From Escherichia coli (GTDB taxonomy: Bacteria > Pseudomonadota > Gammaproteobacteria > Enterobacterales > Enterobacteriaceae): a stretch of DNA of 64,000 bases. The DNA lies in NCBI RefSeq assembly GCF_009931435.1, contig NZ_CP043414.1; one strand, given 5' to 3'. Below the pieces are notes generated by a model. That model was not told the DNA's origin. It made no database searches and saw only the letters and a list, made by a program, of their open reading frames with translations. The position numbers and the translations under genes were made by a program. The number at the start of each line of letters is the position of its first letter. Position 1 is the first letter of the stretch. This document shows, one piece after another, positions 38,145 to 55,637 of the stretch.

Positions 38145-38417
38145 TTAATGTATTCTGTTTATTTTCTTACCATTGAACATACTTTTATTGTCAGCTATCG
38201 CTGTTCTTCTGTTTGGCCCTCCTGTATCACTGTTGCTAAAATCACGAATTATGCTGTCAATTAAATCTCGTCGGAAAGCATTTTCCTCAGCCGATTTCAT
38301 TACGAGTAATTGCTTAATAAGAGTCTGCAACGAAAAATTTATCTTCATGCGTAATATCTGGAGCACCGCCTGGCCAGTAATTTCATGTTTTATACTTTCA
38401 TTATCAGATGTCTTCAT
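38145..38417 (-). CDS. ymgA: Small connector protein YmgA
   Basis: 90-aa translation matches YmgA. Confidence 0.8.
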   Translation of the reverse strand: MKTSDNESIKHEITGQAVLQILRMKINFSLQTLIKQLLVMKSAEENAFRRDLIDSIIRDFSNSDTGGPNRRTAIADNKSMFNGKKINRIH

Positions 38418-38459
38418 AACGACTTCATAGTTAATCTGTCAAATAATCAGGCTGTCACA

Positions 38460-38696
38460 TTATTCAAAAAGCAACCCAATTAGTGAATTGTAGTGTTTCT
38501 GTTCCTCTTCCCCTGTCGCTTGCTCCAGTCGACAAAGAAGTTTGGTACAAAGCGACTTTCGACTCAGATTACGTCCATCTTTCAAAATTTCAGTCACAAT
38601 TTCCCCGAGGGTTTCCTGCTGAGTAGGCAAGTTAGCTTTTGCAAAGTAACGAGTAATTGCCCCCGCAGAATCTGAAATCACTGAATTTTGCTGCAT
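38460..38696 (-). CDS. ycgZ: Small protein YcgZ
   Basis: 78 aa MQQNSVISDSAGAITRYFAKANLPTQQETLGEIV...; matches YcgZ; first gene of the ycgZ-ymgA-ariR-ymgC operon. Confidence 0.8.
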   Translation of the reverse strand: MQQNSVISDSAGAITRYFAKANLPTQQETLGEIVTEILKDGRNLSRKSLCTKLLCRLEQATGEEEQKHYNSLIGLLFE

Positions 38697-39009
38697 GCTA
38701 CGCCTCTATTAAAAATGTTAAACGTTGTTAAGTGCAGTAACAATAGCAAACTTGTACGAAATATGTGTACAGAATGATAAATTATTTTTTTGCAATTAGT
38801 GCTAACACCTATAAAACAATGAGATACGTAAAAATTATTTGCATCATTTGACTGACAACCTATACAAGATTCCAAACGAACTCATCTTCAACTTTTTCCA
38901 CCTTTTATAAATGTAAAGAAACAGTTATGTTTTGGTATTAAAAGAAAGACACAAGCAGATATGTCTGTTACCGTCTTACTCTCGCCTCGCCCATTACCCT
39001 GGATTGTTA

Positions 39010-40221
39010 ATGCTTACCACCCTTATTTATCGTAGCCATATACGTGACGACGAACCTGTCAAAAAAATCGAAGAAATGGTTTCGATAGCAAATCGCAGGA
39101 ACATGCAGTCTGACGTAACAGGGATCTTACTGTTTAATGGTTCTCATTTTTTCCAGCTTCTGGAAGGTCCGGAAGAACAGGTTCAACTGATATATCGGGC
39201 CATATGCCAGGATCCACGGCATTATAATATTGTTGAACTGTTGTGCGATTACGCGCCTGCTCGCCGTTTTGGCAAAGCAGGAATGGAATTATTTGATTTA
39301 CGCCTGCACGAGCGAGATGACGTTTTACAGGCCGTATTCGACAAGGGTACATCAAAATTTCAGCTAACTTATGATGACAGAGCGCTACAATTTTTTCGTA
39401 CTTTTGTCCTTGCAACCGAACAAGCAACCTATTTCGAGATCCCTGCCGAAGACTCCTGGCTTTTTATCGCTGACGGTTCTGATAAAGAACTTGATTCCTG
39501 TACCCTTTCACCAACTATAAACGACCACTTTGCCTTTCATCCTATTGTCGATCCCTTATCGCGGCGAATAATCGCTTTTGAAGCCATTGTGCAAAAAAAT
39601 GAAGATAGCCCATCAGCTATAGCGGTTGGGCAGCGTAAAGACGGGGAAATCTACAAAGCGGATCTCAAAAGTAAGGCACTTGCATTCGCGATGGCACACG
39701 CACTTGAGCTCGGTGATAAAATGATTTCAATCAATCTATTACCTATGACCCTGGTTAACGAGCCTGACGCGGTCTCTTTTTTACTTGATGAAATAAAGGC
39801 CAATGGTTTGGTGCCTGAACAAATTATCGTGGAATTTACTGAAAGTGAGGTCATATCTCGGTTTGATGAATTTGCCGATGCTGTTAAATCACTTAAGGCT
39901 ACCGGTATGAGTGTAGCAATTGACCATTTTGGCACAGGTTTTGCTGGTTTGTTACTCCTGTCACGCTTCCAGCCTGACAGAATTAAAATCAGTCAGGAAT
40001 TGATTACCAATGTTCATAAAAGCGGGCCTCGGCAGGCAATTATTCAGGCGATCATAAAATGCTGTACATCACTTGAAATTCAAGTCTCTGCGATGGGTGT
40101 GGCAACACCAGAAGAGTGGATGTGGCTTGAATCTGCAGGAATTGAGATGTTTCAGGGAGATCTGTTTGCCAAAGCTAAATTGAATGGTATCCCTTCAGTT
40201 GCGTGGCCGGAGAAAAAATAA
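39010..40221 (+). CDS. bluF: Blue-light sensor BLUF-EAL protein (anti-repressor of BluR)
   Basis: 403 aa from MLTTLIYRSHIRDDEPVKKIEEMV... (BLUF domain) with C-terminal degenerate EAL domain; matches BluF (YcgF). Confidence 0.9.
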   Translation: MLTTLIYRSHIRDDEPVKKIEEMVSIANRRNMQSDVTGILLFNGSHFFQLLEGPEEQVQLIYRAICQDPRHYNIVELLCDYAPARRFGKAGMELFDLRLHERDDVLQAVFDKGTSKFQLTYDDRALQFFRTFVLATEQATYFEIPAEDSWLFIADGSDKELDSCTLSPTINDHFAFHPIVDPLSRRIIAFEAIVQKNEDSPSAIAVGQRKDGEIYKADLKSKALAFAMAHALELGDKMISINLLPMTLVNEPDAVSFLLDEIKANGLVPEQIIVEFTESEVISRFDEFADAVKSLKATGMSVAIDHFGTGFAGLLLLSRFQPDRIKISQELITNVHKSGPRQAIIQAIIKCCTSLEIQVSAMGVATPEEWMWLESAGIEMFQGDLFAKAKLNGIPSVAWPEKK

Positions 40222-40425
40222 TTTTCAGCACATTATTTCACATGATTTCTGGAAATCATCGTGAAAATGAATACGTTATGTTTTAATTTAATCCACATTA
40301 AAAATAATGTTTTATCCAATTTAGCTGAAATCTTATTTATACTTTGTACAATTTTAGCGTATATTGTACAAAGTATTATTGGGTCGTGTACAGGCGACGG
40401 AGATTTATGAGCGCAAGGAGGAATT

Positions 40426-41157
40426 GTGGCTTATTACAGCATTGGTGATGTTGCTGAACGTTGCGGGATTAATCCTGTCACTCTCCGGGCCTGGCAACGC
40501 CGCTACGGTTTGTTAAAACCACAGCGCAGTGAAGGCGGACACCGACTCTTTGATGAAGAAGACATACAACGCATCGAAGAGATCAAGCGTTGGATAAGTA
40601 ATGGCGTCCCTGTAGGCAAAGTTAAAGCATTACTGGAAACCACCAGCCAGGATACGGAAGATGACTGGAGCCGCCTGCAAGAAGAGATGATGTCAATTCT
40701 TCGTATGGCTAATCCTGCCAAACTACGCGCGAGAATTATTTCACTGGGTCGAGAGTACCCGGTAGATCAATTGATTAATCATGTTTACCTTCCTGTTCGT
40801 CAGCGTCTCGTGCTTGATCACAACACCTCCCGCATTATGAGCAGTATATTTGACGGCGCATTAATTGAATACGCAGCAGCCTCACTTTTCGAAATGCGCC
40901 GTAAGCCCGGTAAAGAAGCCATTCTAATGGCGTGGAATGTTGAAGAGAGAGCACGATTGTGGCTGGAAGCATGGCGTTTATCATTGTCAGGATGGCATAT
41001 TTCTGTCCTTGCTGATCCCATTGAATCGCCGCGCCCGGAACTGTTCCCGACGCAAACATTGATTGTCTGGACAGGCATGGCACCAACGAGAAGGCAAAAC
41101 GAACTTTTACAACACTGGGGTGAGCAAGGTTATAACGTCATCTTTCATGCCCCCTAA
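40426..41157 (+). CDS. bluR: MerR-family transcriptional repressor BluR
   Basis: 243 aa, N-terminal Mer[31 protein letters not shown]; matches BluR (YcgE). Confidence 0.9.
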
Positions 41158-41378
41158 TTTCACCTTTATCCCGCCCCTTAGACAGAATCTTATAATCTGA
41201 ACCCACAACAGCGTTTGTACCGGAGCTGATCCGTTGCAAAATGCTCACCGGGAGAATTCAGGTAACCCCCCCTTTCACACTTTGTACATATCACAGCCAA
41301 AGGACAGACCAGCTTGAAGTGAGAAAACCGATCGTGCACACTACGCACTCTCACAACTAACAAAAGGTTATTATCCTG

Positions 41379-41783
41379 ATGGATCAGGTCGTTGTTTTTC
41401 AAAAGATGTTTGAAAAAGTGAGAAAAGAGCAAAACTTTTCCTGGTTTTATTCAGAGTTAAAACATCACCGTATTGTGCATTACATTTATTATCTGGCTAC
41501 GGATAACATCAGAATTATTACTCACGATGAAACAGTTTTGTTATTAAGAGGAAACCGTAGCCTGTTAAAAGTCAGTACAACCAAAAACCCAGGAAAAATT
41601 AAAGAGGCGGCATTGCTTCATATTTCTGGGAACTCTACATTTTGGGAGTATTGTACAACACTGGCAAGTGCTGGCGTTTTCCGCTGGGTAACCGATGTTA
41701 ATAACAACAAACGCGGCTACTACGCTATTGATAATACGCTGTTGTATGTTGAAGATGTGGAAAATAACAAGCCATTAATCTAG
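41379..41783 (+). CDS. ycgX: DUF1398-family protein YcgX
   Basis: 134-aa translation matches YcgX. Confidence 0.8.
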   Translation: MDQVVVFQKMFEKVRKEQNFSWFYSELKHHRIVHYIYYLATDNIRIITHDETVLLLRGNRSLLKVSTTKNPGKIKEAALLHISGNSTFWEYCTTLASAGVFRWVTDVNNNKRGYYAIDNTLLYVEDVENNKPLI

Positions 41784-42177
41784 CAAAATTTTAACACATC
41801 AGAGATCTATCATAATTCAGTAAAATAACAAAATATTATCAGGAACGAGTTAACGCTGCTCATAACAGTCAAACCGATACTATAAAACCCAATAATTGAA
41901 ACCTTTTCATCATGTCAGTAAGATAGTCATCCTTATGATCTTTATATAAAAAAGCCAACCATGGTGGTTGGCAAAGTGGCACAAACCAGCATAAAAGCTA
42001 TGCTTTGTTTAAAAACCTTCTTTAAATTAAATATATATCGTCCTGACTAAACAGAACTAAAACGGAATGAATTATTTAATCATGTTACTAAATTTGATTT
42101 TGTTTAGCCTCTGTTGAGATCCCTTGTTTTAAATTTCATTTGGATAAAATTCTTAATTAAATCCTTGGGAGTCAATT

Positions 42178-42438
42178 ATGTCTATGCAAAGTCAAGGAAT
42201 GAACTTTGAAATGAACCTATACGCATATTTGAATAAATATGATAGTCGGCTTTCAGAAGAAAAACTTGCAATTGATAAGGCAGTTAGAGATTTATATCTT
42301 TGCAACGAACGCGTGGATAACAAGAGAATTATACTGAAATTGCTCTCATTTTTATCATCTGCTGATGACATTGTTGAAAAAGATATTATCAGGAATGCTT
42401 TGGAAGTGGTGCTTCTTTTTACATTAGACGATATTTAA
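42178..42438 (+). CDS. AriR/YmgB-family small protein (additional paralog)
   Basis: 86 aa; C-terminal two-thirds align with AriR (…DNKRIILKLLSFLSSADDIVEKDIIRNALEVVLLFTLDDI vs …[40 protein letters not shown]); GGGAG RBS 8 nt upstream. Confidence 0.7.
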   Translation: MSMQSQGMNFEMNLYAYLNKYDSRLSEEKLAIDKAVRDLYLCNERVDNKRIILKLLSFLSSADDIVEKDIIRNALEVVLLFTLDDI

Positions 42439-42686
42439 GTCATCTCAGGAGTTTTAATACACGAAGAGTGCCCGGATACTAGCGATTATATTCATATTTA
42501 ATTATGAGTGCGGGGAAAGAGATTATGCATTGGCATATTTCTCTAACGTCCGCGATAGAAAAACAACTTTAAATATAAATAAAGAACAAACCACCTTTGC
42601 ATTCAACCTCATCTGAGCTGACTATAGTACAAATTATATTGATATTCTTTATCAACATCATTGGAACAGAAGAATAAGGCGAAGAA

Positions 42687-43010
42687 ATGAAGTGTATAGT
42701 AATTGATACTGTAATACAACCTTCGTGTGGTATATATTTTTCAGTCATATGGAGCGATATAAAAATGATCATTTGGTATCGTTCAAATATCTTTCTCCCA
42801 CCTGGCAGCATATTTACAGTTATTAAGTCAGGTATTATACTCGAGGATAAAGAATATCCGATCAGTATTTTTAACGTGGCGCTATTCAACAAAAATTTAT
42901 GGAATTTAATCAAAAATAGTCAAGAGTGTCCTACAGAATCAAACAAAATTACGAATAAATGCCTGCATAAGCATTGCATTATGCAAATATGTCCACATGG
43001 TCTCAAGTAA
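42687..43010 (+). CDS. iraM: Anti-adapter protein IraM (stabilises RpoS; PhoPQ-regulated in K-12)
   Basis: 107 aa [31 protein letters not shown]...CPHGLK; matches IraM. Confidence 0.88.
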
Positions 43011-43061
43011 TGGGGGTTATTTAACCTTCCCTATATGCTATAGATAAATCTACCAAAAACT

Positions 43062-43090
43062 GCCCCTTCGTAGAGGGGCTCTATGATTTT
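43062..43090 (+). terminator. Rho-independent terminator after iraM
   Basis: gcccct tcgtag aggggc hairpin followed by T-rich tctatgattttgtttt. Confidence 0.7.
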
Positions 43091-43606
43091 GTTTTATTTG
43101 AAGGCATGGTGCTGAATGTATTCGTTGAATCCAGATTCAACACCTGAAGCTGCACTTAACCCATAATACTTGTTTCTGGTTCCTCTACCGAGTGGTCAAA
43201 CAATGATATGTATGTGACGTCAGAGTTTATTTTTTTAGTGTTTAATGCTATTAATTTAACGTAGTTACCTATCTTTTTTCTACCTTCTGAACTAACCTTA
43301 GGTTTCAACGTATCCGGCAGGAGGGGCTATCCCCAATCTTAAATTTTGCTTCCCGATTTGCTCAAGCCAAAGTTTTAATTTTACAACCTATAAACCTGAG
43401 TTAAATCAACCTCATGGTGCTGTCTGTTCCCGCTGTGGAACAAGACTCACTGCAACATCTTGCATTCCTAAACTTCGCAGAAGGCGATGGGCAAAAACTG
43501 TACTGTAATGTTATTTCGATGTCTCTTATGGTAAATAGGAGGCGTCGAGGCTAAGTGAGTAGCCTGCTTGCTTCTCAAGCCTGGATACTATCAGCATTCA
43601 CGTCAG

Positions 43607-43645
43607 ATGAAATGATGATATTTCGCGTAAGAAAGAGGCATTTTT
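43607..43645. repeat. 39-bp repeat, copy B (see 33961..33999)
   Basis: 37/39 identity to the sequence just upstream of the autotransporter gene. Confidence 0.8.
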
Positions 43646-43744
43646 TTATCAACTTCACATCGGAGATGGTAATAATCCTATGGGTCCAGTCCATATGAGG
43701 GGGTCAACATACTATAAAATTCACAATCATAAATTAACTATATA

Positions 43745-45220
43745 TCAAGAACGCCAAAAAAATCCTGAAAATAGTATAATAACAGGGTAAATTTCAAGTC
43801 GACCAAGAATCATAGCAATACACATGAGATATTTTGCAATATCATTAAGAACACCGAATGAGGATGCGGTAGCCCCAAAACCCAGCCCCATATTATTAAT
43901 GCATGCAGCGACTGTCGCAAATGATGTAAGGAAATCATATCCCATACCGTTTAGCACCAGTATAAAAAACACTGTAAAGAAAGTATAAAGAAAAAAGAAA
44001 CTCCATACAGACCTCATTACGCGGTCTGTAACAATCTTCCCTCCTACATTTACACTAAGCAATGCTCTGGGATGAGAAAGCTGATTTATTTCGTGTTTAC
44101 TTTGTTTAAAAAGTATAAGAAATCTAAGTGATTTAATTCCGCCGCACGTTGAGCCTATACATCCCCCAAAAAAACTTGACAGCAGCAAAAAAACTATCGT
44201 ATGTGTGGGCCAGTTTGAATAATCCTGCGTAGCTAAACCATTATCAGTGAGCATGGAGCTAGCAAGAAAAAACGAATGAACAACACTTCCAGTTAAGTCA
44301 TACATACCTATATGCCAGACCTGGAAAGAGGTAACAATGATAACACCTGAAGCTATTAACAAAAAGAAACGAAGTTCAACATCTCTGAGTAAGGGTTTTA
44401 TTGTTTTCCTGCTTATAACAACATACCAAAGAGTGAAGTTGAAAGCCGATAACAGAGAAAAAGAGCCCGCCACCAGTTCAATCAAATAATTATTGAAATA
44501 ACCGATACTCTCACTATGAGTTGAAAAACCGCCAAGAGAAACTGTAGAAAGTCCATGACAAATAGCATCAAACAACGGCATTCCTGCAAGTCGATAACAA
44601 ACAATACAAGCAATGCCTAATAAAGAATAAGTTATCCAAAGTGTCCGCGACGTATCAGCCAGGCGTGGAGTCAGTTTGTCATCCTTAAATGGTCCTGGCA
44701 TTTCTGACTGATAAAGTTTTGCACCACCAATACCCAATAATGGCAACACAGCAACTGCCAGAACAATAACCCCTAAACCGCCTATAAAATTTAATTGTGA
44801 CCGGTAGAACAAATATGCCCGAGATAATGAACTGACATCATCAATTACTGTTGCTCCTGTTGTTGTTATTCCGGAAACCCCTTCAAACAGCGCGTCAGCA
44901 AACGTTAAATTAAGCTCTGAATCAATCCATAATGGAAATGCGCTAATAATAGAAAATAAAATCCAAAACATTACAATTATAATAAACCCATCACGGGTGC
45001 GTAATTGAATGCCAGATTTTTTAGTGGTATACCACGCTCCGCCACCAATACAAAAAAATATAACAAAAGTAATAAAAAAAACGAACAAGCTTTTTTCTTT
45101 ATAAAACAATGCTACAACCATTGGTGGTAACATTGAAAGACTATAGAGCCAGACCAAGAACCCACACATATGAGTTACAACTCTTACATGAGATGTATTC
45201 ATATCCAAATGTTCTTTCAA
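43745..45220 (-). CDS. TrkH/TrkG-family K+ uptake membrane protein (orphan, AT-rich)
   Basis: About 485 aa multi-TM protein; family-typical segments FADALFEGVSGITTTGATV, GGIKSLRFLILFKQ, ILGRLEIYPVIILFSGFFWRS parallel TrkH (ITDAFFESFSGLTTTGATT, GGLKVIRILLLFKQ, LFGRLEVFTLLVLFTPTFWRE). Track ORF begins with TTG at 45220; first ATG at 45202. Confidence 0.8.
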   Translation of the reverse strand: MKEHLDMNTSHVRVVTHMCGFLVWLYSLSMLPPMVVALFYKEKSLFVFFITFVIFFCIGGGAWYTTKKSGIQLRTRDGFIIIVMFWILFSIISAFPLWIDSELNLTFADALFEGVSGITTTGATVIDDVSSLSRAYLFYRSQLNFIGGLGVIVLAVAVLPLLGIGGAKLYQSEMPGPFKDDKLTPRLADTSRTLWITYSLLGIACIVCYRLAGMPLFDAICHGLSTVSLGGFSTHSESIGYFNNYLIELVAGSFSLLSAFNFTLWYVVISRKTIKPLLRDVELRFFLLIASGVIIVTSFQVWHIGMYDLTGSVVHSFFLASSMLTDNGLATQDYSNWPTHTIVFLLLSSFFGGCIGSTCGGIKSLRFLILFKQSKHEINQLSHPRALLSVNVGGKIVTDRVMRSVWSFFFLYTFFTVFFILVLNGMGYDFLTSFATVAACINNMGLGFGATASSFGVLNDIAKYLMCIAMILGRLEIYPVIILFSGFFWRS

Positions 45221-45629
45221 TTATAACCACCTTACTGCAATGTCATGATTATACTGTATAAATTTTAACTCTTCTTAGATCTTACTTCACTGGTCCTTAT
45301 GAAACAATCAGCAAAATGAATCTTATTATAACACTGTTCGGTTATGTATTGTTGAGCCTTCCCGCTGGGCCTGCATCATTACAAGTCGCTCCCTATGGGG
45401 CTTTGTCGAATAAATAATTTTTCGGTAAGTGTCCCCTGAGCAGGTTGTATCTTCAGGCAGTATGAACACTTTCTGGTATACCTACCTTCGTCATTATGTT
45501 CAGCGTATGCACCATGACCAAAGCCTCTGCAACCGGCCTATCATAATCTAGCAGCATCAGAGAACCTCAGAATAACTGTTTTACCCTGTACATTGCCGTT
45601 TCCGCTATTGAGCAACGATTGTAATCTTT

Positions 45630-47617
<1,988 letters not shown>

Positions 47618-48113
47618 TCAATCGCTGATACGCGACTGCACAGTTACGGTCGGCATACTCACCGGGCCAGTAACCCGCTCCTTTTTGGGGTGGGATGAGC
47701 GCGCTGATTTTCACACGGCGCAGCTGCTCGTAACAGAGCCGAGAGGCGTAAACTCCGTCTGCTGCTGTCCTGATTTTTTGATGGGTTTGCCGGATTAATC
47801 CGGCTACACCTCTACATCCGTTACGCTGAATGCTGAGGTCGCCCTTGGGAAGAAGGCATTGCTGACTTATACCAATCCGAAATCACCTACTCGTCCAACC
47901 AGACAGGGAGGGGCCTCGGTTGATAAGAGCTCTGTTATTGATGTGCCAGTTGGTGATTCTAACTTTTGCTTTGTAACGGGACGAGCCGTGTTGGCAGATG
48001 ATGTGTGGTCTGATCCTTAAACTCAGTAAAAGTACGATTTATTCAAAAAAGCCCCTCCACTATGATTTCGATTTAAGGGGCTGATGATTATGTAACGCGA
48101 ATTTACCGGATCC

Positions 48114-49499
<1,386 letters not shown>

Positions 49500-49811
49500 T
49501 CAGGGGGGTTGATATTCCGGATCGTGCCGTGTTTGCCCACGGCTCCCCCTGGAGAGCTGCAGACCTGTTTATTTAACTCGCACAGCGCCGGGGCCTGTCA
49601 GTAAACAGGGAGCATAACCGTCGTGCCATTAAACGCCAGACGGGAGATCATTATTATTTTATTAATACAGATCCGTTGCATTCCGGTCTTTACCGCAGTT
49701 TAAAAGAAAAGAGAATAGGGACTTAGGCAGTAGAGCAGTCATTGGACAGACCACACTACCCCAAACTAGCAGGGGAGTTTTGATAAAATTTTAATAACCG
49801 TTAGCAGGCTA

Positions 49812-49845
49812 ACAAAAAAACAACGGGCGTGTTATACGCCCGTTT
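49812..49845 (-). terminator. Rho-independent terminator after icd
   Basis: On the minus strand: aacgggcgt ataac acgcccgtt hairpin followed by tttttttg. Confidence 0.8.
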
Positions 49846-49867
49846 CAATATTTAACACATGTAGTGA

Positions 49868-51118
49868 TTACATATTCTTGATGATCGCGTCACCAAACTC
49901 TGAACATTTCAGCAGTTTAGCGCCTTCCATCAGACGTTCGAAGTCATAGGTTACGGTCTTGGCATTGATTGCGCCTTCCATACCTTTAACAATCAGGTCA
50001 GCCGCTTCAGTCCAACCCATATGGCGCAGCATCATCTCAGCGGAGAGGATGATAGAGCCTGGGTTAACTTTGTCCTGACCAGCATACTTCGGCGCAGTAC
50101 CGTGGGTGGCTTCAAACAGCGCGCATTCGTCACCGATGTTTGCGCCTGGGGCGATACCGATACCGCCAACCTGCGCTGCCAGAGCATCAGAAATGTAGTC
50201 ACCGTTGAGGTTCATACAGGCGATAACGTCGTATTCAGCCGGACGCAGCAGGATCTGTTGCAGGAATGCGTCAGCAATCACGTCTTTAATAACGATCTCT
50301 TTGCCGGTGTTCGGGTTTTTGACTTTCAGCCACGGCCCGCCGTCGATCAGTTCACCGCCAAACTCTTCACGCGCCAGCTGGTAACCCCAGTCTTTAAACG
50401 CGCCTTCGGTGAACTTCATGATGTTGCCTTTGTGCACCAGGGTCACAGAGTCACGGTCGTTAGCAATTGCGTATTCGATCGCGGCACGAACCAGACGTTT
50501 GGTGCCTTCTTCCGAACACGGCTTGATACCGATACCGCAATGTTCCGGGAAGCGAATTTTCTTCACGCCCATCTCTTCACGCAGGAATTTAATCACTTTC
50601 TCAGCGTCGGCAGAATCAGCTTTCCATTCGATACCCGCATAAATGTCTTCCGAGTTTTCACGGAAGATAACCATATCGGTCAGTTCAGGATGTTTAACCG
50701 GGCTTGGGGTGCCCTGATAGTAACGTACCGGACGCAGGCAGATGTAGAGATCCAGTTCCTGACGCAGAGCTACGTTGAGAGAACGAATACCGCCGCCAAC
50801 CGGAGTGGTCAGAGGGCCTTTAATGGCAACGCGATATTCACGAATCAGATCAAGGGTTTCAGCAGGCAGCCAGACGTCCTGACCATAAACCTGTGTGGAT
50901 TTTTCACCGGTGTAAATTTCCATCCAGGAGATTTTACGCTCGCCTTTATAGGCTTTCTCGACTGCAGCGTCGACCACTTTCAGCATGGCTGGGGTTACAT
51001 CTACACCGATTCCATCACCTTCAATGTAAGGGATAATCGGATTTTCAGGAACGTTGAGTTTGCCGTTTTGCAGGGTGATCTTCTTGCCTTGTGCCGGAAC
51101 AACTACTTTACTTTCCAT
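49868..51118 (-). CDS. icd: NADP-dependent isocitrate dehydrogenase
   Basis: 416 aa [45 protein letters not shown]...; matches Icd. Confidence 0.96.
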
Positions 51119-51289
51119 TCACCTCTCCTTCGAGCGCTACTGGTTTGCTCGTCTGCCACCACGTTGCATATGCGTTTGCGTCCTGCGATACGGATGCGTT
51201 AGAGCAATTTTTTGTTAATGATTTGTAATTAGCTTGTCAATACTACCCTATTGTTTGCCGTCATGAAAGATGCGCGTTATTAGGCTATA

Positions 51290-51943
51290 ATGCGGCACTT
51301 CATAATCTCTGAAAATACCATGCAAAAAACTTCTTTTAGAAATCACCAGGTTAAGCGATTCAGCTCGCAACGTTCTACCAGGCGAAAACCTGAAAACCAG
51401 CCCACGCGTGTGATCCTGTTCAATAAACCCTACGATGTTCTTCCGCAGTTCACCGATGAAGCCGGACGCAAAACATTAAAAGAATTCATCCCGATTCAGG
51501 GGGTGTATGCGGCAGGTCGTCTCGACCGCGACAGCGAAGGGTTACTGGTGCTGACCAATAACGGCGCTTTGCAGGCGCGTTTAACCCAGCCGGGTAAACG
51601 TACCGGGAAAATCTATTATGTACAGGTAGAAGGTATTCCCACGGAAGACGCCCTTGAAGCGTTGCGCAATGGCGTAACCTTAAATGATGGCCCTACCCTG
51701 CCCGCAGGTGCGGAGATGGTTGAGGAGCCGGAATGGTTATGGCCCCGTAATCCGCCAATTCGTGAACGAAAAAGTATTCCCACCAGCTGGCTTAAGATCA
51801 CCTTATATGAAGGACGTAATCGCCAGGTGCGCCGCATGACCGCCCATGTTGGTTTCCCCACGCTGCGACTGATTCGCTATGCGATGGGGGATTACTCTTT
51901 GGATAATCTTGCCAATGGCGAATGGCGAGACGCGACAGATTAA
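51290..51943 (+). CDS. rluE: 23S rRNA pseudouridine(2457) synthase
   Basis: 217 aa; RsuA-family catalytic motif [19 protein letters not shown]. Confidence 0.9.
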
Positions 51944-51952
51944 GGATGCAAA

Positions 51953-53574
<1,622 letters not shown>

Positions 53575-53609
53575 TTATTGTCTTTAATTACAACAAGGAA
53601 GCAGTGAAC

Positions 53610-54251
53610 GTGGCAAAGAATTACTATGACATCACCCTCGCCCTGGCCGGAATTTGTCAGTCGGCACGCCTGGTGCAACAACTCGCTCACCAGGGGCATT
53701 GTGATGCCGATGCGCTACACGTCTCACTCAACAGTATTATTGATATGAACCCCAGCTCGACGCTGGCGGTTTTTGGCGGTAGCGAAGCCAACCTGCGCGT
53801 CGGGCTGGAAACCTTGCTCGGCGTGCTCAACGCCAGCAGTCGCCAGGGCTTAAACGCTGAGTTAACCCGCTACACCCTTAGCCTGATGGTGCTTGAGCGC
53901 AAACTCTCCTCAGCGAAAGGCGCGCTCGACACTCTGGGCAACCGGATCAACGGCCTGCAACGACAGCTCGAACACTTCGATTTACAGTCCGAAACGCTGA
54001 TGAGCGCGATGGCCGCCATCTATGTTGATGTTATCAGCCCGCTAGGCCCGCGCATTCAGGTCACCGGTTCCCCTGCTGTACTGCAAAGCCCACAGGTGCA
54101 GGCGAAAGTCCGCGCCACCCTGCTGGCAGGCATTCGCGCCGCCGTGCTCTGGCACCAGGTCGGCGGCGGACGTCTACAACTGATGTTTTCTCGTAATCGC
54201 CTGACCACTCAGGCAAAACAAATTCTTGCTCATTTAACCCCGGAGTTGTGA
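53610..54251 (+). CDS. hflD: High-frequency lysogenisation protein HflD
   Basis: 213 aa from GTG start (V)[28 protein letters not shown]...; matches HflD. Confidence 0.9.
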
Positions 54252-55625
<1,374 letters not shown>

Positions 55626-55637
55626 GCCTCAAATCAG

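What the first reader, a model, noticed from the sequence alone, without database searches (positions are those of the whole stretch)
42178..42438. Extra AriR/YmgB-family paralog immediately upstream of iraM
An 86-aa ORF with a good RBS shares the conserved C-terminal helices of AriR (YmgB) but lies outside the ycgZ-ymgA-ariR-ymgC operon, between ycgX and iraM. These small proteins feed into the Rcs/RpoS biofilm and acid-resistance circuitry, and iraM is itself an RpoS stabiliser under PhoPQ control (phoPQ is about 13 kb away in this window). A second AriR-like protein adjacent to iraM could be an additional connector in that network. I could not recall whether this ORF is annotated in K-12.
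Basis: partly seen in the sequence, partly recalled or inferred. Interest (0 to 1): 0.45.

Follow-up and report, generated by a model that had tools for sequence, protein, structure and literature searches.

The report
AriR-like gene heading the iraM operon
A real, selection-maintained extra member of the small AriR/YmgB regulator family sits directly in front of the RpoS-stabiliser gene iraM in a rare E. coli lineage, apparently sharing iraM's PhoP-type promoter; K-12 and most other E. coli lost it through a 443-bp deletion.

Summary
The 86-aa ORF at 42178-42438 (+) exists as described and is a genuine YmgB/AriR-family gene. It scores Pfam PF10798 E=8.7e-14 and is 40% identical to this window's own AriR. 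Its AlphaFold model superposes on the YmgB crystal structure 2OXL (TM 0.93). Frame-specific dN/dS is 0.15. RefSeq already labels it "biofilm development regulator YmgB/AriR family protein", but I found no paper on it.

It is rare: 29 of 5,426 complete E. coli genomes carry it, as two deep alleles, and so does one non-coli Escherichia-like genome. In all 12 contexts examined iraM lies directly downstream. K-12 and about 72% of E. coli carry a 443-bp deletion that leaves only the first ~9-11 codons. That stub now forms a 22-codon ORF whose stop codon overlaps the iraM ATG.

A PhoP-box-like site with a -10 element lies just upstream of the ORF and is conserved in every haplotype, including K-12, where it sits in front of iraM. 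No terminator separates the ORF from iraM, and no BluR motif lies upstream.

Best reading: the ancestral arrangement is a PhoP-controlled bicistronic operon, AriR-like gene then iraM. The protein's targets (RcsC, SpoT) are inferred only. It is a new member of a known kind, of moderate interest.

The parts
42101..42117 (+). PhoP-box-like direct repeat TGTTTA-gcctc-TGTTGA
   Evidence: It matches (T/G)GTTTA-N5-(T/G)GTTTA with 1 mismatch. There are 5 such hits in the window against 1.25 expected; another is the perfect box at 55717 in front of phoP. The core is invariant across the window, allele 2, the non-coli L007 and K-12, where it precedes iraM, while the adjacent 5'UTR is only ~50% conserved.
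42130..42135 (+). -10-like hexamer TAAATT, 12 nt after the PhoP box (predicted TSS near 42142)
   Evidence: Read. TTTAAATTT is invariant in all six aligned haplotypes. The spacing fits PhoP-activated promoters in which the box replaces the -35 element; that rule is from my own knowledge, and the TSS was not measured.
42167..42171 (+). Shine-Dalgarno GGGAG
   Evidence: Read. It lies 6 nt before ATG 42178 and 12 nt before ATG 42184.
42178..42438 (+). AriR/YmgB-family paralog, 86 aa (alternative conserved start at 42184, giving 84 aa)
   Evidence: Pfam PF10798 E=8.7e-14. 40% identity to the window's AriR. AF2 pLDDT 86; Foldseek best hit 2OXL_A with TM 0.93 and rmsd 0.5 A. dN/dS is 0.14-0.155 in frame and 1.1-1.4 off frame.
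42439..42686 (+). 248-nt spacer between the ORF and iraM
   Evidence: No plus-strand terminator-like or sigma-70-like site lies in the window's spacer. The two other haplotypes also show no terminator there; a weak 9-of-12 promoter-like match begins just after the ORF stop codon in L005. The spacer is the least conserved part of the locus at 62-72%. RNA fold z=-1.9, with no hairpin followed by a U-run. Most of it is removed by the K-12 deletion.
42687..43010 (+). iraM (anti-adaptor of RssB), a divergent allele
   Evidence: NCBIfam IraM 143.6 bits. 80% nucleotide identity to K-12 iraM, dN/dS 0.22.
43062..43079 (+). Terminator-like hairpin after iraM (likely end of the operon)
   Evidence: GCCCCTTCGTAGAGGGGC followed by a T-rich tail.
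41379..41783 (+). ycgX (DUF1398), upstream neighbour; not a required part of the unit
   Evidence: Pfam DUF1398 E=1.3e-44. It is absent between bluR and the ORF in L007/L008, where the ORF-iraM pair is still present.

Best explanation
The ORF encodes a functional fourth YmgB/AriR-family protein of this genome. It is a small helical protein with the AriR three-helix core plus a predicted extra N-terminal helix. It is most likely the first gene of a two-gene operon, AriR-like gene then iraM, transcribed from a PhoP-activated promoter (PhoP box 42101-42117, -10 at 42130-42135) and ending at the hairpin after iraM.

Under PhoQ/PhoP-inducing conditions (low Mg2+, mild acid, osmotic upshift) the cell would make IraM, which stabilises RpoS. 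It would also make this AriR-like protein. By analogy with AriR, that protein would act by protein-protein contact on signalling proteins. The most plausible targets are the RcsC kinase domain (Rcs activation) and/or the SpoT regulatory region (ppGpp accumulation).

This two-gene arrangement is ancestral. K-12 and about 72% of E. coli derive from the allele-2 haplotype by a 443-bp deletion that fused the promoter and the first ~9-11 codons directly to iraM.

Shown: family membership, predicted fold, purifying selection, synteny, the deletion, and conservation of the PhoP-box-like promoter. Inferred: PhoP dependence here, co-transcription with iraM, and the protein's targets.
For: Gene reality:
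- Pfam YmgB scores 51.6 bits. That is second only to AriR (90.3) and above YcgZ (24.9); YmgA gets no hit.
- The AF2 model has pLDDT 86, and Foldseek places it on 2OXL_A with TM 0.93 and rmsd 0.5 A.
- dN/dS is 0.14-0.155 across three haplotypes with dS 0.6-0.9. Off-frame values are 1.1-1.4. iraM itself is at 0.21-0.225.
- The ORF (80%) and iraM (80%) are more conserved than the spacer (62-64%) and the 5'UTR (~50%).

AriR-like surface:
- Helices 2 and 3 are the most conserved parts.
- AriR Arg74, whose R74G change abolishes SpoT binding (PMC10704370), is kept as Arg72 and is invariant in the A5 alignment and nearly invariant family-wide.
- AriR binds the RcsC histidine-kinase domain, and family members bind each other (PMC6900184).
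- Rcs activation by YmgB is RcsF-independent (PMC11709261).

Operon and PhoP:
- The PhoP-box-like site and -10 element are invariant in four divergent haplotypes and lie upstream of the ORF.
- In K-12 the same element is the only conserved promoter-like block in front of iraM.
- K-12 iraM transcription is PhoQ/PhoP-dependent, with ~20-fold induction (PMC5740661; PMC10948607).
- No plus-strand terminator lies in the spacer of any of the three haplotypes. Promoter-like matches there are limited to one weak hit in L005.
- The ORF is followed by iraM in all 12 contexts examined.
- No BluR motif (GTACA/TGTAC) lies upstream, while the ycgZ promoter in the same window has it.

Deletion:
- K-12 is collinear with allele-2 strain GF4-3 except for L005 6029-6471, which is 443 bp.
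- The K-12-type junction is present in 3,883 of 5,426 genomes. The intact gene is present in 29.
Against: - There are no expression data of any kind for this ORF.
- The PhoP box is a consensus match with one mismatch (two in K-12). I could not retrieve the mapped K-12 iraM TSS or PhoP site from the literature.
- The 248-nt spacer is long for an operon and could hold an unrecognised promoter or a Rho-dependent terminator.
- The gene has been lost in more than 99% of E. coli that still keep iraM, so its function is dispensable or niche-specific.
- 35-40% identity to AriR leaves room for different partners.
- The predicted N-terminal helix and helix 1 differ substantially from AriR.
Confidence: 0.6

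Rival explanations
1. Decaying relic. The ORF is an intact-looking but functionally irrelevant leftover of an old duplication, on its way to loss. The deletion seen in most E. coli is simply the end point.
For: Only 29 of 5,426 complete genomes keep it, while 3,883 carry the deletion. No species-representative genome among 100,044 encodes a close relative. One subgroup has lost the first ATG.
Against: Frame-specific dN/dS is 0.15 over dS 0.6-0.9, a stronger constraint than on iraM. The frame is full length in all three deep haplotypes, including a non-coli genome. The core start codon, promoter block and family-invariant residues are all conserved.
Confidence: 0.08
2. Independent AriR back-up. 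The ORF is functional but is its own transcription unit. It would be redundant with AriR in the Ymg/Rcs biofilm circuit and only fortuitously next to iraM, which would have its own promoter in the spacer.
For: In the non-coli genome L007 it follows bluR directly with no ycgX, so it travels with the blu/ymg island. The 248-nt spacer is long, and L005 has a weak 9-of-12 promoter-like match just after the ORF stop codon. In strain PT62 an IS1 event removed ycgZ-ymgA-ariR but the ORF remains, consistent with a substitute role.
Against: iraM also follows the ORF in L007. No BluR motif lies upstream of the ORF. The window and L007 spacers contain no plus-strand promoter-like site, and the spacer is the least conserved segment. 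In K-12 the promoter block that serves iraM is the one homologous to the ORF's upstream region, and the deletion removed nearly the whole spacer without abolishing PhoP-dependent iraM expression.
Confidence: 0.2
3. IraM-pathway accessory. The protein works on the RssB/IraM/RpoS branch itself, for example by binding IraM or RssB or by feeding back on PhoQ/PhoP, rather than on Rcs or SpoT.
For: The ORF is linked to iraM in every context seen, and iraM is never missing when the ORF is present. Full-length IraM is reported to be very insoluble on its own (bioRxiv 10.1101/2023.01.07.523045). Small PhoP-regulated connector proteins are a known theme; IraM has a PmrD-like fold.
Against: IraM works without the ORF in K-12. 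No evidence links any YmgB-family protein to RssB. The residues that are conserved are those AriR uses for SpoT.
Confidence: 0.08

Closest known systems
AriR (YmgB, b1166) of E. coli K-12; crystal structure PDB 2OXL
   Same: Same Pfam family PF10798. 40% identity over the three-helix core. The predicted fold superposes on 2OXL with TM 0.93. The SpoT-contact arginine (AriR R74, here R72) and the NKxIIL and DxIRxxLExV motifs are kept. Similar length, 86 against 88 aa.
   Different: It forms a separate clade: every AriR orthologue or other family member is at most 43% identical to it, whereas AriR orthologues of other genera are 45-70% identical to AriR. The location differs (between ycgX and iraM, not in ycgZ-ymgA-ariR-ymgC). 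It has a PhoP-box-like promoter and no BluR motif upstream. It is found only in Escherichia and only in 0.5% of complete E. coli genomes.
YcgZ and YmgA (paralogous small proteins of the ycgZ-ymgABC operon)
   Same: They are small helical proteins of the same superfamily and bind AriR and each other (PMC6900184). YcgZ weakly matches PF10798.
   Different: The ORF is only 22-24% identical to them and is far closer to the AriR-type core. YmgA does not match the Pfam model at all.
K-12 iraM promoter and leader region (with small proteins YmgK and YmgL between ycgX and iraM)
   Same: The region upstream of the ORF (41880-42141) is homologous to the K-12 iraM upstream region, including the PhoP-box-like site, the -10 element and ymgK.
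   Different: K-12 lacks 443 bp and keeps only the first ~9-11 codons, now a 22-codon ORF that ends in an ATGA overlap with iraM. The window lacks the ymgL segment.
PhoP-controlled small connector proteins (IraM, PmrD, SafA-PhoQ link)
   Same: If the operon model is right, this would be another small protein made on PhoQ/PhoP activation that relays the signal to a second pathway by protein-protein contact.
   Different: The fold family is unrelated: helical YmgB against the PmrD-like fold of IraM. Connector activity of this ORF is inferred, not shown.

Membership tests
YmgB/AriR family (Pfam PF10798) | Sequence match to the family model above the curated cut-off | tested here: met
   51.6 bits against a cut-off of 22.3, E=8.7e-14, covering 58 of 59 model positions. 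Allele 2 scores 58.3 bits and the L007 variant 50.9 bits.
YmgB/AriR family (Pfam PF10798) | Three-helix core fold as in crystal structure 2OXL | tested here: met
   AF2 model with pLDDT 86 and helices 22-41, 48-61 and 65-85. Foldseek against the PDB returns 2OXL_A as the only significant hit, with TM 0.93, rmsd 0.5 A and 42% identity. This rests on a prediction, not an experimental structure.
YmgB/AriR family (Pfam PF10798) | Family-conserved residues, including the arginine needed for SpoT binding (AriR R74) | tested here: met
   E28, K49, I52, L55, R72 and L75 are nearly invariant in 125 family members and all present in the ORF. The role of R74 is taken from PMC10704370.
YmgB/AriR family (Pfam PF10798) | Homodimer formation and hetero-association with YcgZ, YmgA and AriR | not testable with these tools
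   Known for AriR. Only a monomer could be modelled here.
YmgB/AriR family (Pfam PF10798) | Activates Rcs through the RcsC kinase domain and/or raises ppGpp through SpoT | not testable with these tools
   Shown for AriR only. This needs experiments.
AriR orthologue (the ariR gene itself) | Position as third gene of ycgZ-ymgA-ariR, divergent from bluF-bluR | tested here: not met
   The window has its own ariR at 37850-38116 (-) in that operon. The ORF lies 4 kb away on the other side of bluR and ycgX. All 13 orthologous loci found in other genera have only the operon copy.
AriR orthologue (the ariR gene itself) | Clusters with AriR sequences at orthologue-level identity | tested here: not met
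   35-40% identity to AriR. It forms its own 50% cluster and a separate long branch in the NJ tree.
BluR regulon | BluR operator motif (TGTAC...GTACA) at the promoter | tested here: not met
   No GTACA or TGTAC occurs anywhere in 41784-42177. The motifs are present at the ycgZ promoter, 38753-38771. The motif is taken from PMC3509220.
PhoP regulon | PhoP box (T/G)GTTTA-N5-(T/G)GTTTA about 12 nt upstream of a -10 element | tested here: met
   TGTTTAgcctcTGTTGA at 42101-42117 has 1 mismatch. TAAATT follows 12 nt later. Both are conserved in all haplotypes, including the K-12 iraM upstream region. This is a consensus match only.
PhoP regulon | PhoP-dependent transcription and PhoP binding in vitro | not testable with these tools
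   PhoQ/PhoP dependence is documented for K-12 iraM, not for this ORF.
Operon with iraM | Same strand, no intervening terminator, conserved adjacency | tested here: met
   No plus-strand terminator lies in the spacer in any of three haplotypes. One weak promoter-like match occurs in L005 only. iraM follows the ORF in 12 of 12 contexts.
Operon with iraM | A single transcript spanning both genes | not testable with these tools
   No transcript data were available.

The most novel reading that the evidence does not exclude
In the ancestral Escherichia arrangement, PhoQ/PhoP switches on two small protein connectors from one promoter. IraM stabilises RpoS. An AriR-like protein activates Rcs and/or SpoT-dependent ppGpp synthesis, or assists IraM itself. 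That would give a direct PhoPQ-to-Rcs/stringent-response link that K-12 lost by deletion. In K-12-type strains the 22-codon stub of the lost gene would not be junk. It would be a leader ORF translationally coupled to iraM through its ATGA overlap, setting IraM output.
Probability: 0.25. Interest if true: 0.6.

Novelty: new member of a known kind. Interest (0 to 1): 0.42.

Why it matters
The PhoPQ-IraM-RpoS branch and the Ymg/Rcs branch are studied almost entirely in K-12. Here K-12 turns out to be a deletion derivative. The intact locus suggests that PhoQ/PhoP originally produced an AriR-type protein together with IraM. That would tie Mg2+, acid and osmotic sensing to capsule/biofilm control (Rcs) or to ppGpp (SpoT), both of which are documented AriR activities.

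The finding also reinterprets the K-12 iraM leader. Its Shine-Dalgarno sequence, start codon and first codons belong to a lost gene and now form an upstream ORF overlapping the iraM start. This bears on how iraM translation is set.

The gene is easy to test by cloning it into K-12. Natural carriers and non-carriers offer a ready comparison. The practical weight is limited, because the gene is rare and belongs to a known family.

Tried and rejected
- **BluR control.** I looked for the BluR motif upstream of the ORF. None is there, while the positive control at the ycgZ promoter has it.
- **Known RNA in the region.** An Rfam scan of 38000-46000 at E<=1 gave only sub-threshold chance hits. The spacer fold is unremarkable.
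- **IraL.** The window's iraM might have been IraL, the CFT073 variant. IraL is 67% identical at nucleotide level, lies in a different context and has a different mapped 5' end. The window's gene is a syntenic iraM allele, 80% identical to K-12.
- **Mapped K-12 iraM TSS and PhoP site.** Bougdour 2008 and Eguchi 2011 are not held. Other papers confirm PhoP dependence but give no coordinates.
- **Species distribution.** A genome-contig scan with the single protein found nothing. Alignment A5 was too diverse to run. Alignment A2 returned only AriR orthologues in Raoultella, Citrobacter, Enterobacter, Leclercia, Silvania and Pseudenterobacter, none with an extra copy beyond bluR.
- **Species of contigs L007/L008.** This could not be determined. 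Their hglS-opgD segment is 88.8% identical to the best-matching E. coli genomes, and 5,416 of 5,417 matching genomes fall in the 80-90% band.
- **Literature on the K-12 stub.** A full-text search for its peptide, and for small-protein or ribosome-profiling papers mentioning iraM, found nothing specific.
- **Pseudogene reading.** Rejected on frame-specific dN/dS.

Full report
**1. The observation**

The window contains an 86-codon ATG ORF at 42178-42438 on the plus strand. GGGAG lies 6 nt upstream of the start. The order on the plus strand is:
- bluF (38932-40221)
- bluR (40426-41157)
- ycgX (41379-41783, DUF1398)
- the ORF
- iraM (42687-43010; NCBIfam IraM 143.6 bits)
- trkG on the minus strand.

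The canonical ycgZ-ymgA-ariR-ymgC operon is present separately at 38696-37481 on the minus strand.

**2. It is a real YmgB/AriR-family gene**

- Pfam PF10798 matches over 58 of 59 model positions, at 51.6 bits against a cut-off of 22.3, E=8.7e-14.
- On the same model AriR scores 90.3 bits, YcgZ 24.9 and YmgA nothing. The ORF is thus the most AriR-like of the paralogs.
- BLASTP against the window's AriR gives 40% identity over 73 residues, E=5e-17.
- phmmer against the PDB finds only YmgB, 2OXL, at E=1.1e-10.
- An AlphaFold2 model built on a 125-sequence family alignment has mean pLDDT 86 and four helices at 5-20, 22-41, 48-61 and 65-85.
- Foldseek against the PDB returns 2OXL_A as the only significant hit, with TM 0.93 and rmsd 0.5 A over 59 columns.
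- Family-invariant positions are retained. These include Arg72, the equivalent of AriR Arg74, whose R74G substitution abolishes SpoT binding and ppGpp induction (PMC10704370).

**3. It is under purifying selection**

The gene occurs as two deep alleles in E. coli. Allele 1 is 86 aa, as in the window. Allele 2 is 84 aa and 73-75% identical at the protein level. A third variant, P0011, is 83% identical.

| Comparison | dN/dS | dS |
|---|---|---|
| ORF, pairwise between the three haplotypes, annotated frame | 0.14-0.155 | 0.6-0.9 |
| ORF, window vs allele 2 (L005), the two other frames | 1.1 and 1.4 | not applicable |
| iraM between the same haplotypes | 0.21-0.225 | 0.64-0.74 |

Between alleles 1 and 2 the ORF and iraM are each 80% identical. 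The spacer is 62-64% identical and the 5'UTR about 50%.

**4. Distribution and annotation**

- RefSeq/PGAP already annotates the gene as "biofilm development regulator YmgB/AriR family protein" (e.g. WP_072004008.1).
- The exact window protein is in NCBI as a MULTISPECIES [Escherichia] entry.
- It is rare. 29 of 5,426 complete E. coli genomes carry it: 18 with allele 1 and 11 with allele 2.
- The 5.8-billion-protein index returns 19 clusters. All named ones are from E. coli.
- An exhaustive HMMER search of 1.84 billion representatives finds a small family of 158 representatives. The ORF clade is its own 50% cluster there, and every other member is at most 43% identical.
- In an NJ tree the clade is a separate long branch next to the AriR group.
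- Scans of one genome per species (100,044 species) found no close relative. They found only the operon-borne AriR orthologues in six other genera, none with an extra copy beyond bluR.
- I found no paper on this gene. Tschowri et al. 2012, which analyses the evolution of this region, does not mention it.

**5. K-12 has lost the gene by deletion**

In K-12 the ycgX-iraM interval carries only the small proteins YmgL and YmgK (PMC6001520). Alignment shows that K-12 retains the ORF's upstream region at 74% identity, then the first ~11 codons, then almost immediately iraM.

Against allele-2 strain GF4-3, K-12 is collinear except for 443 bp, L005 6029-6471. These 443 bp hold codons 10-84 of the gene and most of the spacer. 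iraM itself is 96% identical between the two. The K-12-type junction is present in 3,883 of 5,426 genomes. The intact gene is therefore the ancestral state and the common state is derived.

The stub in K-12 is a 22-codon ORF, MQNQEINILMNHIKYRGIRHNK. Its TGA stop overlaps the iraM ATG as ATGA. This ORF and the overlap are preserved in diverged K-12-type alleles. It is not annotated in NC_000913.3, and I found no mention of it in the literature.

**6. Link to iraM and PhoP**

- Every context examined has iraM directly downstream of the ORF. This covers five RefSeq genomes, four contigs carrying the exact window protein, and three contigs carrying P0011.
- Two of those contigs (L007, L008) come from a non-coli Escherichia-like genome. 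Their hglS-opgD segment is 88.8% identical to the best-matching E. coli genomes, and 5,416 of 5,417 matching genomes fall in the 80-90% band.
- In that genome the order is bluF-bluR-ORF-iraM with no ycgX, next to ydcI-hglS-opgD. The conserved unit is therefore ORF plus iraM.
- A PhoP-box-like repeat, TGTTTAgcctcTGTTGA at 42101-42117, is followed 12 nt later by TAAATT.
- This block is invariant or nearly so in the window, allele 2, L007 and K-12, amid poorly conserved flanks.
- In K-12 it lies in front of iraM. K-12 iraM transcription is PhoQ/PhoP-dependent (PMC5740661; PMC10948607).
- No plus-strand terminator-like site lies in the 248-nt spacer in any haplotype. Promoter-like matches there are limited to one weak hit in L005.
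- A terminator-like hairpin follows iraM at 43062-43079.
- No BluR motif lies upstream of the ORF, although the ycgZ promoter in the same window has it.

I infer a PhoP-activated bicistronic operon. This is an inference from sequence. I could not retrieve the mapped K-12 TSS or PhoP footprint.

**7. Likely mechanism**

AriR is a small helical dimer. It binds the RcsC histidine-kinase domain and activates Rcs independently of RcsF (PMC6900184; PMC11709261). Independently, it binds the SpoT TGS/Helical region through helix 3 to raise ppGpp (PMC10704370). Family members also bind one another.

The ORF keeps helices 2 and 3 and the key arginine. The most likely action is therefore AriR-like partner binding, now placed under PhoQ/PhoP control alongside IraM. 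My estimates are:
- about 0.9 that it is an expressed YmgB-family protein;
- about 0.6 that it is co-transcribed with iraM from a PhoP promoter;
- about 0.35 that its targets are RcsC and/or SpoT.

**8. Rivals**

- *Decaying relic.* Contradicted by the selection data.
- *Independent AriR back-up with its own regulation.* Possible, given the long spacer and its travel with the blu island, but disfavoured by the promoter homology with K-12.
- *Accessory of IraM/RssB.* Suggested only by strict linkage with iraM.

**9. Verdict**

It is a new member of a known family, named by family in RefSeq and uncharacterised. The added findings are the ancestral operon with iraM, the PhoP-type promoter, the K-12 deletion and the stub uORF. 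Interest is moderate.

**10. Background note**

The window is 97.0% identical to K-12 across icd-phoPQ-pot. It is 93.5% identical across pdeG-ymg-blu-ycgX. It is only 74-80% identical around the ORF and iraM. The locus therefore carries unusually deep haplotypes.

Noticed in passing
L004 7069-7001 (-), i.e. NC_000913.3 about 1212068-1212000; no equivalent in the window, which has the intact gene: K-12 has an unannotated 22-codon ORF, MQNQEINILMNHIKYRGIRHNK. It is built from the Shine-Dalgarno sequence, start codon and first ~9-11 codons of the deleted AriR-like gene. Its TGA stop overlaps the iraM ATG (ATGA), which suggests translational coupling. The ORF and the overlap are kept in diverged K-12-type alleles (e.g. 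MQNKEMNIQMNYIKYRGIRHNK in FWSEC0008). Strain S40 has lost it through a larger deletion.
   Followed up: partly
window about 42027-41945, minus strand: Candidate small RNA divergent from the ORF promoter. It has two hairpins and a U-run (MFE -24.3, z=-2.9). The terminator-like site is conserved in three haplotypes. The 3' 58 nt are almost invariant where the flanks differ by 20-27%. On the minus strand it is preceded by a PhoP-box-like cGTTTtAGTTCTGTTTA and a TATATT -10-like element. There is no Rfam match and no covariation, because the pairs are invariant. The hairpin is degraded in K-12-type strains.
   Followed up: partly
window 41961-42050 (+): Homologue of the validated K-12 small protein YmgK (MFSKLAQSSIKAMF). 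Here it is a 29-codon ORF (MVVGKVAQTSIKAMLCLKT...) whose start lies inside the hairpin of the candidate minus-strand RNA. The high conservation of 41879-42100 (78%) could reflect either element.
   Followed up: partly
window 41832/41833; L002 4051-4485; L003 3566-4000: Length polymorphism just after ycgX. Related carrier strains have about 435 bp more here. K-12 has a different ~280-bp segment encoding YmgL. The window has neither.
   Followed up: partly
window 41300-43050 compared with 49778-64000: The ycgX-ORF-iraM segment shows very deep allelic divergence (dS 0.5-0.9; iraM 80% identical to K-12). The housekeeping flank is 97.0% identical to K-12. This suggests ancient haplotypes or introgression from another Escherichia species.
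   Followed up: partly
window 43745-49490: Between iraM and icd the window carries trkG, an IS21-like istA/istB pair (46476-47498 and 45697-46479, minus strand) and a 458-aa ORF. K-12 has the e14 prophage at this position. The closest RefSeq relative, 2020CK-00188, has trkG and a partial IS5 but no IS21 there.
   Followed up: no
L006 (E. coli PT62) 2332-3814: An IS1 insertion has truncated bluF, and the ycgZ-ymgA-ariR-ymgC operon is absent. The ORF-iraM pair is retained, leaving the ORF as the only AriR-type gene at the locus.
   Followed up: no
L022 7922-8245, L024 7112-7435, L025 7943-8266 (Leclercia): An IraM/PmrD-like ORF (23% identity to the window's IraM, E about 1e-10 to 5e-12) lies about 2-2.7 kb downstream of ariR in three Leclercia genomes. 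This is a second, independent proximity of the two small-protein families.
   Followed up: no
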